The notes below the pieces were generated by a model, which was given only the letters and a program-made list of their open reading frames with translations, searched no databases and was not told the DNA's origin. Positions 53,574-54,894 of a stretch of 64,000 nucleotides of DNA are shown here, piece after piece. Positions within the stretch are counted from its first letter, which is position 1. Each line of letters opens with the position of its first letter. Source of the stretch: an uncultured bacterium (GTDB lineage Bacteria > Chlamydiota > Chlamydiia > Chlamydiales > JAAZZY01); the NCBI GenBank assembly GCA_964612505.1, contig CAZTEX010000002.1, positions 61,943 to 125,942 of the forward strand. Reading direction: 5' to 3'. Position numbers and translations under genes: made by a program.

Positions 53574-53632
53574 ATCATCCAACCAGTTGGAGGTGGAGAG
53601 ACGCATTCAGAACTTTTGACTGGGATAAAATT
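53574..53632. repeat. Direct repeat of the ssrA (tmRNA) 3' terminus plus downstream flank (attR/attL-like, copy D), followed by the extended repeat shared with copies A-C and F
   Basis: 53574-53601 GATCATCCAACCAgTTGGAGGTGGAGAGA equals 54469-54497 GATCATCCAACCAaTTGGAGGTGGAGAGA (28/29). The match spans the last 14 nt of tmRNA plus the 15 nt beyond it. It then continues CGCATTCAGAACTTTTGACTGGGATAAAATTCC to 53632. Confidence 0.7.
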
Positions 53633-53883
53633 CCTACTGAGGTGATGGTTGGTTCCGCACAAGATAGGTTCGATGCTAAAGGAAGCCTGACCGACCCTAA
53701 AACTCGTCAAAAAATTGCAGAACTTCTAGCTGCACTCACTGCTTGTGCAAGACATCGATCTGCTTTAGCATAACAAGCCATCTTGCTCTCTCTCGATCCC
53801 TGATCCTATTTTCTGGAAGCTCATTTCCCTAGTCACAGTCTACTAACCCCCATTAATCTCGTTCATAGCAAGCTAGTTTTTAG

Positions 53884-54216
53884 GCTGTTACGTCTTTTTG
53901 CTTTGGATATATAAAATCGCTGATTTCATCTGGAGCTCCTCTTGTTATTCTAGATGCACGCAGTGGTAAATGGGACGATGGGAAACGGATTGCAACTGCT
54001 CAAGCGTTGTCTGATAAAGCAACAGTAAAGCAGGCAGGAAAACTTATCCCAACCAAGAACTCATTAGTTGTAGTCTATTGTAGCAATATCCAATGTCCTG
54101 CGAGCAATAATCTTGCAAGACACCTTTCCGAACTTGGCTATTCAAATATCTTGAAATACGACGAAGGAATTCAGGAATGGATCAACTCAGGACGTTCAGT
54201 TCGCGAAACCCATTAA
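53884..54216 (+). pseudogene. Rhodanese-domain (sulfurtransferase-like) gene lacking a canonical start; probably 5'-truncated
   Basis: Open frame from 53884: ...APLVILDARSGKWDDGKRIA...NSLVVVYCSNIQCPASNNLARHLSELGYSNILKYDEGIQEWINSGRS, a complete rhodanese core with an active-site Cys loop. There is no ATG or GTG; the track uses a TTG at 54007, which would remove the first beta-strand and helix. Confidence 0.45.
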
Positions 54217-54483
54217 GGGAAGGGCATCGCGTTAGTCAAGCGCTGATTTTCTTGATTTTAGGTGATTCTGTCTAAGCTCATGCAAAATTTTTATGTAACG
54301 GCGAACATGGTCTTGAATTTAGCAACTCGCGCTCGAGAAATCTTTGAGAGTTCTGAAGTGGGTGAAAAACGACAACTTTTGAATTTAGTATTTCAGAACT
54401 TGCAACTGAGAGGCTTAAACCTCTCAGTTTCAGAGCAAGAACCATTCTTAACGATGTTGGATTGTAAAGATCATCCAACCAAT

Positions 54484-54894
54484 TGGAGGTGGAGAGAATC
54501 GAACTCTCGTCCTAAGCGTACTCCACATCGATATCTACATGCTTATCATCTCAATTTTACAACTTACTCCAATGTGAGATGCCCCATCAGAAGTAAATCG
54601 GCTTTTTTGAGTCTCGGAAATTTCTATAAAAAACAAAACTCAAAATCCCATACCAAGTAAACTGACGATAATTCTAAAACCCTCGGTCCAGCGTTAGGTT
54701 ATCGAGCTTTCTAAACGGTTAGGTTTAGGCAGCCATTTCAAGAGCTGCATCAGAATAACCGAAGTCACCTGCTACAACTTTTGACTTTCTTTGCTTGTTA
54801 GCAATTATGTTTTTGCCAGATGATTTAGGAGGCCAACTGACGTCCTCCGCATGCAATCGGTGCTTCGAACCCTAGTCGAAACCTGTACACCCCC
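54484..54894 (-). ncRNA. ssrA: tmRNA (ssrA), one-piece, 411 nt; my reading of the tag is ANKQRKSKVVAGDFGYSDAALEMAA
   Basis: The reverse complement starts GGGGGTGTACAGGTTTCGAC (tRNA-like acceptor/D-analogue) and ends ...GGACGAGAGTTCGATTCTCTCCACCTCCA (T-arm, then an acceptor complementary to GGAGGTG, discriminator A). Internal GCATGCGGAGGACG...GGCCTCCTAAA precedes an ORF, GCT AAC AAG ... ATG GCT GCC TAA, that ends in AA* like known tags. CCA is not encoded. Confidence 0.9.

What the first reader, a model, noticed from the sequence alone, without database searches (positions are those of the whole stretch)
53574..54894. tmRNA (ssrA) gene with a 28/29-bp direct duplication of its 3' terminus 0.9 kb away: a remnant att pair
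On the minus strand a full tmRNA can be read by eye, with a GGGGGTGTACAGGTTTCGAC 5' end, a ...GGACGAGAGTTCGATTCTCTCCACCTCCA 3' end, and an internal tag ORF ending ...ALEMAA*. Its last 14 nt and the 15 nt downstream of it (54469-54497) recur at 53574-53601 with a single mismatch. tmRNA 3' ends are a classical site-specific integration target, and integration duplicates exactly this terminal segment, so this is the geometry of attL/attR. The interval between the two copies is only ~0.86 kb and holds just a start-less rhodanese-domain ORF. That suggests an old, eroded island rather than an intact element. No ORF in the window has tyrosine- or serine-recombinase motifs, so no integrase is visible.
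Basis: partly seen in the sequence, partly recalled or inferred. Interest (0 to 1): 0.8.

Follow-up and report, generated by a model that had tools for sequence, protein, structure and literature searches.

The report
Decayed island array at tmRNA gene
An intact tmRNA gene of an unnamed environmental chlamydia is followed by the eroded remains of several small mobile elements that inserted one after another into its 3' end, using a large serine recombinase whose own gene runs across the insertion site; this is a familiar kind of genomic scar, left by a widespread chlamydial element family for which I found no published description.

Summary
ssrA lies at 54484-54894 (-) (Rfam 149 bits). The repeat is 31 nt with 1 mismatch (53571-53601 / 54467-54497).

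This is an att-type remnant, but an integrase is visible: 54283-54513 (+) encodes the last 77 residues (93.5% identity) of a 496-aa large serine recombinase (LSR) that is intact in related chlamydial genomes.

In this family the LSR gene converges on ssrA (or tRNA-Tyr or tRNA-Met) and ends inside it. Only 14 nt (TGGAGGTGGAGAGA) is shared target sequence. The other 17 nt of the repeat is recombinase coding sequence, so the lower copy is an attP-like junction inside a tandem array.

Further fossil junctions lie at 52676-52709 and 50602-50640, and probably at 30948-30964. Cargo genes between them include a methyltransferase, RpiB and Fic.

Related sequences supply all four sites: an empty attB (L129), attL and attR (L007, L011), and a circular 9.1-kb element whose LSR reads through attP (L088).

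The closest precedent is the Dehalococcoides ssrA islands with the DsiB recombinase. The locus is inert and ordinary. The element family appears undescribed for Chlamydiota.

The parts
54484..54894 (-). ssrA (tmRNA gene), intact; tag ANKQRKSKVVAGDFGYSDAALEMAA*
   Evidence: ARAGORN; Rfam RF00023 149.3 bits, E=1.1e-58
54902..54930 (-). promoter-like site for ssrA (TTGTCA-17-TATAAT, 11/12, TG extended)
   Evidence: Consensus scan; a consensus match only
54484..54497 (.). 14-nt core TGGAGGTGGAGAGA at the ssrA end (discriminator + acceptor 3' strand + T-stem + 1 nt): the sequence shared by attB, attP, attL and attR; the crossover must lie within it
   Evidence: Arm consensus from 28 tmRNA-type attL and 12 tail junctions; four-site set
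54283..54513 (+). C-terminal remnant (77 aa) of a large serine recombinase gene, reading antisense into ssrA; gene callers report it as a 126/132-aa ORF (54262/54280-54660)
   Evidence: tblastn vs L007 LSR aa 420-496, 93.5% identity, E=1e-43; L007 protein has PF00239+PF07508+PF13408; 140 homologues of the module
54467..54497 (+). upper copy of the 31-nt repeat = recombinase codons K-D-H-P-T-N (17 nt) + core (14 nt): attL-type junction
54349..54400 (+). inverted 9-mer pair AGTTCTGAA (54349-54357) - N34 - TTCAGAACT (54392-54400) inside the recombinase remnant; frozen at synonymous sites across 68 loci; the same 9-mer as in the tail
   Evidence: Codon-level conservation; role unknown
54245..54289 (+). 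deletion scar: matches L007 2500-2544 (87%) and abuts the sequence matching L007 8088 onward, implying loss of ~5.5 kb (a 477-aa ORF, primase/AAA_25, a 172-aa ORF and 85% of the recombinase gene)
   Evidence: blastn window vs L007; L007 ORFs
53902..54216 (+). rhodanese-domain pseudogene (frame open from ~53885, no start codon): cargo remnant of element 1
   Evidence: PF00581 E=1.6e-9; translation
53630..53773 (+). C-terminal ~45 aa of an FMN-reductase-like cargo gene, fused in frame to the tail
   Evidence: BLASTP vs P0112 (PF03358/PF02525): 66% identity over the 62-aa alignment, which also spans the tail; E=2e-26
53562..53624 (+). junction J1, attP-like: ~26-nt 3' remnant of an older recombinase gene (..FEDHPTS), core 53588-53601, and the conserved element 'tail' CGCATTCAGAACTTTTGACTGG (53602-53623)
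   Evidence: nhmmer with a tail profile built from other genomes, E=5e-14; 91% to L007 517-572; alignment A2
52760..53467 (-). class I SAM methyltransferase: surviving cargo of element 2
   Evidence: Pfam Methyltransf_11/25; position between J2 and J1
52676..52709 (+). junction J2: decayed core (TGGAAGAAAAGAGC) + tail CATTCAGAACTTTTGAGTAG
   Evidence: nhmmer 15.2 bits, E=1e-3; hits of this strength are 37 on the + strand and 0 on the - strand in 1.17 Mb of related loci
52191..52649 (+). RpiB/LacAB-type sugar-phosphate isomerase: cargo
   Evidence: PF02502 E=3.5e-35
52087..52127 (+). possible further junction J2b (66% to J3; shares the J3-specific variant GCATTTGAAAC); weak
   Evidence: the repeat finder family D1; alignment A2; not recovered by nhmmer
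50718..52142 (+). Fic-domain protein: cargo; a 79%-identical homologue sits directly after a tail copy in Waddliaceae MAG L013
   Evidence: PF02661; tblastn and blastn vs L013
50602..50640 (+). junction J3: decayed core TGGAAGAGGAGAGA + tail variant AGCATTTGAAACTTTTGATTGG
   Evidence: blastn vs L007 526-575, 82%, E=1.5e-7; nhmmer 10.3 bits; strand control 44 vs 0
30948..30964 (+). probable oldest fossil tail J4 (GCAT-CAGAACTTTTGATTGG), 23.5 kb downstream of ssrA
   Evidence: nhmmer 13.9 bits, E=2.5e-3; strand control 39 vs 0; no core survives

Best explanation
The locus is the fossil of serial site-specific integrations into the 3' end of ssrA by small (about 2-10 kb) integrative elements of environmental chlamydiae that use a large serine recombinase (LSR).

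In the free circular element the LSR gene runs across attP. Its last conserved codons (..P-T-N-W-R-W-R) include a 14-nt core identical to the ssrA terminus. They are followed by a short conserved 'tail' (D-A-F-R-T-F-D-W, DNA CGCATTCAGAACTTTTGA).

Recombination within the core places the element downstream of ssrA and regenerates the ssrA 3' end. The LSR gene is left converging on ssrA with a new antisense-ssrA ending (..WRWRESNSRP). The core+tail is carried to the far end of the element.

A later element integrating at the regenerated site produces an internal attP-like junction (old LSR end + core + new tail). In the window, the ssrA-proximal element then lost ~5.5 kb, including 85% of its LSR gene. 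Older elements were reduced to single cargo genes plus decaying core+tail junctions.

Shown: the anatomy, the homology, all four att site types in relatives, and the circular form. Inferred: the order of events, the crossover position within the core, and that the tail is the recombinase's outer attP half-site. The remnant is now immobile unless an intact recombinase elsewhere in the genome acts in trans.
For: 1. The fragment at 54283-54513 matches aa 420-496 of the intact L007 LSR at 93.5% identity. L007 carries PF00239, PF07508 and PF13408.
2. A genome scan found 195 loci with this C-terminal module, nearly all labelled Chlamydiota. Of the 80 fetched, the module's final W codon overlaps by 2-5 nt the 3' end of an opposite-strand tmRNA gene in 28, tRNA-Tyr in 15 and tRNA-Met in 1. 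About 34 have an intact ~500-aa ORF.
3. The core+tail profile hits 35 times on the recombinase strand and 0 times on the other: 27 on the element side, 2-10 kb from the LSR end, and 5 directly at an LSR end. Arrays of 4-5 copies occur in L013 and L078.
4. Four-site set. The empty attB in L129 has a 48/48-identical left flank to the attR of L011. attL and attR are seen in L007. The attP form is in L088, a 9,155-nt contig with a 30-nt terminal overlap (circular), no tRNA or tmRNA gene, and an intact 509-aa LSR reading through core+tail.
5. The window matches L007 at the tail (91%), at the LSR end, and at a 45-nt deletion scar.
6. Additional junctions in the window at 52676, 50602 and 30948 lie on the expected strand and side. 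Fic is cargo next to a tail in both the window and L013.
7. Full-length homologues end in tmRNA antisense (35), tRNA-Tyr antisense (30), tRNA-Met antisense (6) or the attP form (3).
Against: No intact recombinase is in the window, and the rest of this genome could not be searched. No empty site or polymorphism was found for this species: all six contigs examined carry the same array. No recombination has been shown experimentally for any member, and the crossover dinucleotide is not mapped. J2b is weak. J4 has no surviving core, and housekeeping-looking genes (YqeY, SpoU, FtsJ-like) lie between it and J3, so not all intervening DNA need be island-derived. The left (P) arm shows no clear copy of the conserved 9-mer, so the attP half-site model is incomplete.
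Confidence: 0.85

Rival explanations
1. This is a single old island integrated by a classical tyrosine integrase (as in most tmRNA-gene islands). The 29-31-nt repeat is the duplicated target, and the integrase has been lost completely.
For: tmRNA 3' ends are classical tyrosine-integrase targets (Islander abstract, PMC4383910, listed). No catalytic recombinase domain is in the window (one search found only the C-terminal fragment).
Against: 17 of the 31 repeated nt are serine-recombinase coding sequence, not ssrA. The fragment abutting ssrA is 93.5% identical to an LSR C-terminus. In relatives the same junctions flank elements whose only recombinase is the LSR. More junctions follow on the same strand.
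Confidence: 0.04
2. The lower copy arose by local duplication or gene conversion of the recombinase 3' end rather than by a second integration event. On this view J1 is not a product of site-specific recombination.
For: The two copies are only 0.9 kb apart and 97% identical over 31 nt.
Against: To the right of the core the two copies diverge exactly at the core boundary into ssrA versus the conserved element tail, as at attL and attR of intact elements. The same attP-like junctions occur at LSR ends within arrays in L025, L061, L063 and L069.
Confidence: 0.05
3. The retained short ORFs (the LSR C-terminal fragment antisense to ssrA, and the tail ORF) are functional small genes or antisense regulators of ssrA, kept by selection rather than being debris.
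For: C-terminal remnants next to tRNA and tmRNA genes are very common. About half of the 80 loci have truncated ORFs, and the first search returned only short (75-236 aa) proteins.
Against: Ascertainment bias: the searches used this module as the query. The remnants have different truncation points and no common start. The endings after the core are variable read-through of antisense RNA genes. The window copy carries a deletion scar.
Confidence: 0.04
4. The repeat is a chance match or a genome-wide dispersed repeat unrelated to ssrA.
For: None beyond prior possibility.
Against: There are only two matches in 64 kb at up to 3 mismatches, and none in 100 shuffles. The tail profile shows complete strand and position specificity in 1.17 Mb of related loci.
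Confidence: 0.01

Closest known systems
Dehalococcoides ssrA-specific genomic islands with serine recombinase DsiB (McMurdie et al. 2011, PMC3146451; read)
   Same: Integration is into the ssrA 3' end by a ~500-540-aa serine recombinase. The recombinase gene sits next to the ssrA-side junction, is oriented toward ssrA and 'always' overlaps attL at its 3' end. Tandem arrays of islands lie downstream of ssrA, bounded by short ssrA direct repeats. A conserved motif lies next to each repeat. Many islands are reduced to cargo. The elements are small integrative or mobilizable elements without conjugation genes.
   Different: The phylum differs (Chlamydiota vs Chloroflexota). The repeat is 14 nt, ending at the first T-loop position, against 20 nt with insertion mid-T-loop. 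No second small serine recombinase (DsiA) is seen in L007 or L088. The chlamydial family also targets tRNA-Tyr and tRNA-Met. The accessory module differs (primase/AAA_25, HTH_17). Sequence homology to DsiB was not tested because no DsiB sequence was available.
Classical tRNA/tmRNA-gene genomic islands and prophages with tyrosine integrases (Williams, 'Traffic at the tmRNA gene', 2003, cited in PMC7192596; Islander database, PMC4383910)
   Same: The target is the 3' end of ssrA. The element-borne sequence restores the gene. A displaced 3' fragment in direct orientation marks the far end. Tandem arrays arise from repeated use of the site.
   Different: The recombinase is a large serine recombinase, not a tyrosine integrase. 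The shared core is short (14 nt). The int gene itself spans attP.
Integrases whose gene contains attP: Myxococcus phage Mx8 intP/intX, and SSV1-type archaeal integrases (recalled from memory; SSV-type covered in the review PMC8371274, listed but not read)
   Same: attP lies inside the integrase coding sequence, so integration changes or splits the 3' part of the gene. The target is a tRNA gene 3' end.
   Different: Those are tyrosine recombinases. In SSV1 the gene is split into two large parts, whereas here only the last ~10-60 codons are exchanged.
Listeria A118/LI-type large serine integrase att-site architecture (Rutherford et al. 2013, PMC3783163)
   Same: The domain set is the same: Resolvase, Recombinase, zinc ribbon with a coiled-coil region. 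The inner part of the half-site is identical in the P' and B' arms. An outer motif (GAAC/GAACT) lies 5 nt further out in the element arm than in the tRNA/tmRNA arm, as described for the zinc-ribbon-domain motif (bp 16-24 in attP against 11-19 in attB).
   Different: Sequence identity to phage integrases is 38% or less. The match to the 5-bp rule rests on a 4-5-nt motif found post hoc. The left arms show no clear motif. Nothing has been tested biochemically.

Membership tests
tmRNA (Rfam RF00023) | Full-length covariance-model match above the gathering score, with a tRNA-like domain closing the 5' and 3' ends | tested here: met
   149.3 bits against a gathering score of 47, model positions 1-374
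tmRNA (Rfam RF00023) | Internal tag reading frame ending in a hydrophobic ..AA* degron | tested here: met
   ARAGORN tag ANKQRKSKVVAGDFGYSDAALEMAA*
Large serine recombinase (LSR / serine integrase) | N-terminal resolvase catalytic domain with the serine nucleophile | tested here: not met
   Absent from the window, where only aa 420-496 survive. Present in the intact homologue L007 (PF00239, residues 3-152..ARVSSKEQ..). The window copy is therefore a pseudogene of an LSR, not an LSR gene.
Large serine recombinase (LSR / serine integrase) | Recombinase domain + zinc ribbon domain (+ coiled coil) C-terminal to the catalytic domain | tested here: met
   For the family: PF07508 and PF13408 in L007, and PF07508/PF13408 in essentially all of the 120 listed homologues, with PF00239 absent mainly from N-terminally truncated proteins. 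The window fragment is homologous to the region after these domains.
Integrative element at a tRNA/tmRNA gene (Islander-type definition) | Intact target gene at one end and a displaced 3' fragment of it in direct orientation at the other | tested here: met
   Core copies at 54484-54497 and 53588-53601 on the same strand. The displaced fragment is only 14 nt.
Integrative element at a tRNA/tmRNA gene (Islander-type definition) | Empty attB in related genomes whose flank matches the outer flank of the occupied site | tested here: met
   Family level only: the L129 attB left flank is 48/48 identical to the L011 attR left flank. Not found for the window's own species.
Integrative element at a tRNA/tmRNA gene (Islander-type definition) | Free circular form carrying attP | tested here: met
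   L088: 30-nt terminal overlap, no tRNA or tmRNA gene, LSR reads through core+tail. This rests on assembly evidence only.
Dehalococcoides-type ssrA-GI (DsiB system) | [quoted passage not shown] | tested here: met
   for the family; for the window; definition from PMC3146451
Dehalococcoides-type ssrA-GI (DsiB system) | Co-transcribed second small serine recombinase (DsiA) and the syntenic 6-gene integration module | tested here: not met
   L007 and L088 have a single Resolvase-domain protein. Its neighbours are a primase/AAA_25 protein, an HTH_17 protein and small unknown ORFs.
Dehalococcoides-type ssrA-GI (DsiB system) | Sequence homology of the recombinase to DsiB/CcrB | not tested
LI/A118-type att-site architecture | Zinc-ribbon-domain motif 5 bp closer to the centre in attB than in attP, with the inner (RD) part shared | tested here: inconclusive
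   Core nt up to position 14 are identical in P' and B'. GAACT (tmRNA) or GAAC (tRNA-Tyr, tRNA-Met) lies 5 nt further out in P' (rule). The motif is short, was found post hoc, and covers one arm only.

The most novel reading that the evidence does not exclude
The chlamydial LSR family recognises tRNA-like 3' ends in a modular way. The inner half-site is the acceptor/T-stem sequence, which co-varies with the target (tmRNA, tRNA-Tyr, tRNA-Met and others). The zinc-ribbon domain reads the near-universal T-loop (GTTC; antisense GAAC) in attB, and reads a nucleotide-frozen 9-mer (TTCAGAACT) 5 bp further out in attP. Because attP is embedded in the recombinase's own 3' coding region, changing a few codons would retarget the element to a different RNA gene. 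That would make this a naturally reprogrammable serine integrase family. The extra inverted 9-mer pair inside the gene could be an autoregulatory or architectural site.
Probability: 0.3. Interest if true: 0.6.

Novelty: new member of a known kind. Interest (0 to 1): 0.4.

Why it matters
For this genome the result is mainly corrective. The ORFs called antisense to ssrA and at the tail are debris, ssrA is intact, and Fic, RpiB and the methyltransferase (and perhaps more) arrived as island cargo.

More broadly, it identifies a family of small LSR-driven integrative elements as a recurrent source of gene flux at tmRNA, tRNA-Tyr and tRNA-Met genes in environmental chlamydiae. The genome scan found 195 loci and the protein search 1,398 homologues. 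I found no description of it in the held literature. Public protein sets contain many of its artefactual endings, which are translations of antisense tRNA or tmRNA.

The family also offers intact, compact LSR/attP/attB sets with short targets in conserved RNA genes. These could be tested as integration tools for chlamydiae, which are hard to manipulate genetically.

Tried and rejected
- Pfam and NCBIfam scans of the reconstructed C-terminal ORF found no family. Homology was only visible through the large protein database.
- Naming the organism failed. Exact look-ups gave only 'NCBI, Logan' without accessions. The genome is not among the GTDB representatives; the best was 93% identity, L007. 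Right-flank synteny points to Waddliaceae-like chlamydiae (L080).
- Looking for an empty site or polymorphism in the same species failed: six contigs all have the identical arrangement.
- Literature searches for chlamydial serine-recombinase islands, or for T-loop recognition by LSRs, found nothing specific.
- A symmetric copy of the 9-mer in the left (P) arm of attP, sought by eye, was not found. Only weak dyad symmetry near the core (7/13) appeared, so it is not claimed.
- A strict peptide regex for the tail under-counted copies (1 of 5 in L013). It was replaced by an nhmmer profile.
- GC content gave no usable boundary (0.41 at 50-54 kb against ~0.37 elsewhere).
- Gene content between J4 and J3 is a mix of accessory and housekeeping-like genes, so it is not decisive.
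- I considered that the tail D-A-F-R-T-F-D-W is a functional peptide switched off by integration. Conservation extends to synonymous positions (AGA 18/18; TTC and ACT 17/18 each) and stops abruptly after 8 codons. That favours a DNA site, although a peptide role is not excluded.
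Full report
OBSERVATION. The tmRNA gene is real and intact. ARAGORN places it at 54484-54894 on the minus strand with tag ANKQRKSKVVAGDFGYSDAALEMAA*. Rfam RF00023 matches over its full length at 149.3 bits, E=1.1e-58. A strong promoter-like site sits just upstream. The repeat is real and slightly longer than reported: 31 nt with one mismatch (53571-53601 vs 54467-54497). 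There are no other copies in the window at up to 3 mismatches, and none appeared in 100 shuffles. Weaker similarity extends to 40 nt. Only the last 14 nt (TGGAGGTGGAGAGA, 54484-54497) belong to ssrA.

WHAT ABUTS ssrA. Read on the plus strand, both repeat copies lie in open frames..LDCKDHPTNWRWRESNSRP.. into ssrA, and ..FEDHPTSWRWRDAFRTFDWDK.. at the lower copy. A query joining the two through the repeat hit 140 proteins. Several are called 'site-specific DNA recombinase' and three carry the zinc ribbon PF13408. All share a conserved C-terminal module (..NFYVTANMVLNLAARAREIFESSEV.EKRQLLNLVFQNLQL..EPF.TM.DYK..P..W). After the final W they have alternative endings: antisense tmRNA (RWRESNSRP), antisense tRNA (GRLDSNQR.., GNLDLNQGPTGYES..), or RWRDAFRTFDW.., the window's 'tail'.

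THE FAMILY. A scan of species-representative genomes with the module found 195 loci, almost all labelled Chlamydiota. I fetched 80 of them. The module's last codon overlaps by 2-5 nt the 3' end of an oppositely oriented tmRNA gene in 28, tRNA-Tyr(GTA) in 15 and tRNA-Met in 1. About 34 have ~420-440 further codons upstream. The best match to the window, L007, encodes a 496-aa protein with Resolvase, Recombinase and Zn_ribbon_recom domains, which makes it a large serine recombinase (LSR). The window keeps only residues 420-496, at 93.5% identity. A search with the full L007 protein found 1,398 homologues. Among the top 120, 35 end in tmRNA antisense, 30 in tRNA-Tyr antisense, 6 in tRNA-Met antisense and 3 in the tail form. 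A named example is Neochlamydia sp. S13, where a decayed copy ends inside tRNA-Tyr.

ELEMENT BOUNDARIES AND THE FOUR SITES. A profile of core+tail hits 35 times on the recombinase strand and never on the other strand in 1.17 Mb. Of these, 27 lie 2-10 kb to the element side of an LSR end, and 5 lie directly at an LSR end. At lower thresholds the strand asymmetry stays complete, 44 vs 0. L007 is an intact 7.8-kb element: core+tail, DUF1398, aldo-keto reductase, a 477-aa ORF, a primase/AAA_25 protein, a 172-aa ORF, then the LSR ending in ssrA. L088 is a 9,155-nt contig with a 30-nt terminal overlap, which is the signature of a circular path in a k=31 assembly. It has no tRNA or tmRNA gene and an intact 509-aa LSR that reads straight through core+tail. 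This is the free form, with attP inside the LSR gene. A metagenome scan with the ssrA 3' 29-mer found mostly unoccupied sites: 112 of 117 with enough flank, many of them not chlamydial. One of them, L129, has a left flank 48/48 identical to the attR left flank of the occupied chlamydial locus L011. Written on one strand, attB, attP, attL and attR share the 14-nt core and exchange arms exactly at its edges.

READING THE WINDOW. The upper repeat copy is an attL-type junction: LSR codons K-D-H-P-T-N, then the core, then ssrA. The lower copy is attP-like: about 26-40 nt of another LSR gene's 3' end (..F-E-D-H-P-T-S), then the core, then the tail. That is what results when a new element integrates at the ssrA-proximal junction of a resident one. 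The single mismatch (AAT vs AGT) lies in the LSR-derived part, not in the core, which fits two different parental genes.

Window 54245-54289 matches L007 2500-2544 and directly abuts sequence matching L007 8088 onward. The proximal element therefore lost ~5.5 kb internally. Its remaining content is a start-less rhodanese domain and the C-terminal ~45 aa of an FMN-reductase-like gene fused to the tail.

Further junctions on the same strand are J2 at 52676-52709 (15.2 bits), J3 at 50602-50640 (82% to L007, E=1.5e-7), a weak J2b at 52087-52127, and J4 at 30948-30964 (13.9 bits). Between them lie a methyltransferase, RpiB and Fic. The Fic gene has a 79%-identical homologue placed immediately after a tail copy in the five-junction array of Waddliaceae MAG L013, so it is element cargo. 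The same arrangement is present in all six contigs of this species examined, so the array is fixed.

MECHANISM. What is shown: the core equals the discriminator, the acceptor 3' strand, the T-stem and the first T-loop nucleotide. It co-varies with the target (TGGAGGTGGAGAGA for tmRNA, TGGGGGCGGT(C/T)GGA for tRNA-Tyr), while the following CG(C/G)ATTCAGAACTTTTGA is constant.

That tail is conserved at synonymous positions (AGA 18/18; TTC and ACT 17/18 each). Most invariant residues of the module use synonymous codons freely, with a major third-base fraction of 0.31-0.76. This argues that the tail is conserved as DNA, which in turn suggests it is the outer P' half-site.

What is inferred: GAACT (tmRNA) or GAAC (tRNA-Tyr, tRNA-Met) of the T-loop antisense lies 5 nt nearer the core than the GAACT of the tail. 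This matches the rule that the zinc-ribbon-domain motif is 5 bp closer to the centre in attB than in attP (Rutherford et al. 2013, PMC3783163). The motif is short and the comparison is post hoc, so I rate this model at about 0.3. Integration replaces the LSR's last ~10-60 codons. Because residues after the 8-codon tail are not conserved, I think a protein-level switch is unlikely, though it is untested.

COMPARISON AND NOVELTY. The closest precedent is the Dehalococcoides ssrA-specific islands. They have a ~540-aa serine recombinase (DsiB) next to ssrA whose 3' end 'always' overlaps attL, tandem islands bounded by 20-bp ssrA repeats within 100 kb of ssrA, and a conserved motif beside each repeat (PMC3146451). 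The chlamydial system shares this logic. It differs in lacking a DsiA partner, in having a 14-nt core, in also using tRNA-Tyr and tRNA-Met, and in its accessory genes. Homology to DsiB was not tested. Mx8 intP/intX and SSV1 (from memory) share the attP-inside-int principle but use tyrosine recombinases. I found no description of this family for Chlamydiota in the held literature. Annotated records call it only 'recombinase family protein'.

VERDICT. The locus is a decayed, inert tandem array: a new member of a known kind. The element family behind it is moderately interesting.

Noticed in passing
window 54349-54357 and 54392-54400 (same positions in 68 related loci): Inside the recombinase coding region, AGTTCTGAA and TTCAGAACT form an inverted pair separated by 34 nt (52 bp overall). 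Both are frozen at synonymous sites (S-S-E as AGT-TCT-GAA in 67-68 of 68 loci; F-Q-N as TTT-CAG-AAC in all sequences that have those residues). It is the same 9-mer as in the attP tail. The geometry is attP-like, but the pair lies ~90 nt from the real crossover. Its function is unknown.
   Followed up: partly
window 30948-30964 (+): GCAT-CAGAACTTTTGATTGG is a probable fossil tail 23.5 kb downstream of ssrA, on the expected strand (13.9 bits; no wrong-strand hits of this strength in 1.17 Mb of related loci). The 20 kb between it and J3 holds a mix of accessory-type genes (MFS, TetR, PadR, GNAT, glyoxalase, FAD monooxygenase) and housekeeping-looking genes (YqeY, SpoU, FtsJ-like).
   Followed up: partly
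window 50652-50755: Four copies of AATGGCCGTAT in alternating orientation, including a perfect 16-nt palindrome (50653-50668 / 50673-50688), lie between the J3 tail and the start of the Fic gene and overlap that start. The segment 50604-50695 also matches two places in L013 (3278 onward and 7281-7372). It may be an operator or an element-end repeat.
   Followed up: no
L011 10201-10250; proteins P0009 and P0026 (..WRWRESNTVEW.IF..): In some loci the ssrA-derived sequence to the right of the LSR end stops after 21 nt (..ATCGAAC|ACGGTCGAATGG) and no tmRNA gene follows. This suggests that a second, different element type integrates in the ssrA T-loop and displaces LSR elements together with a 21-nt ssrA fragment.
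   Followed up: no
L087 (Logan SRR26268948_187910), 1-10175: An attP-form, full-length LSR of this family (518 aa) sits next to phage-like genes (GP3_package small terminase, a 514-aa ORF, a 1019-aa helicase, HTH_3). The family may therefore also serve a chlamydial phage or phage-like element. The contig is not circular.
   Followed up: partly
window 54262-54660 (+); public proteins P0002 and many of P0001-P0120: Gene callers report ORFs that read through antisense ssrA or tRNA genes (endings such as ..ESNSRPKRTPHRYLH.. and ..LDSNQRRPKSRDLQSLAIA..). These are annotation artefacts, and they populate public protein databases as 'hypothetical proteins'.
   Followed up: yes
window 54401-54432: A 16-nt perfect-arm hairpin with no loop (TGCAACTGAGAGGCTT / AAACCTCTCAGTTTCA, 88% complementary) lies within the LSR remnant, 52-83 nt downstream of the ssrA 3' end on the ssrA strand. 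It is not followed by a T-run and is not conserved across the whole family.
   Followed up: no
L013 3271-8783; L078: Other chlamydial genomes carry 4-5 core+tail fossils spaced 0.6-2.3 kb apart next to a truncated LSR at ssrA. Decay to 'junction + one cargo gene' units therefore looks like a common fate of these elements.
   Followed up: partly
window 9420-9493 (+): A tRNA-Met(CAT) gene is present in the window, and relatives of this LSR family target a tRNA-Met. No LSR remnant or significant tail copy lies downstream of it here.
   Followed up: yes
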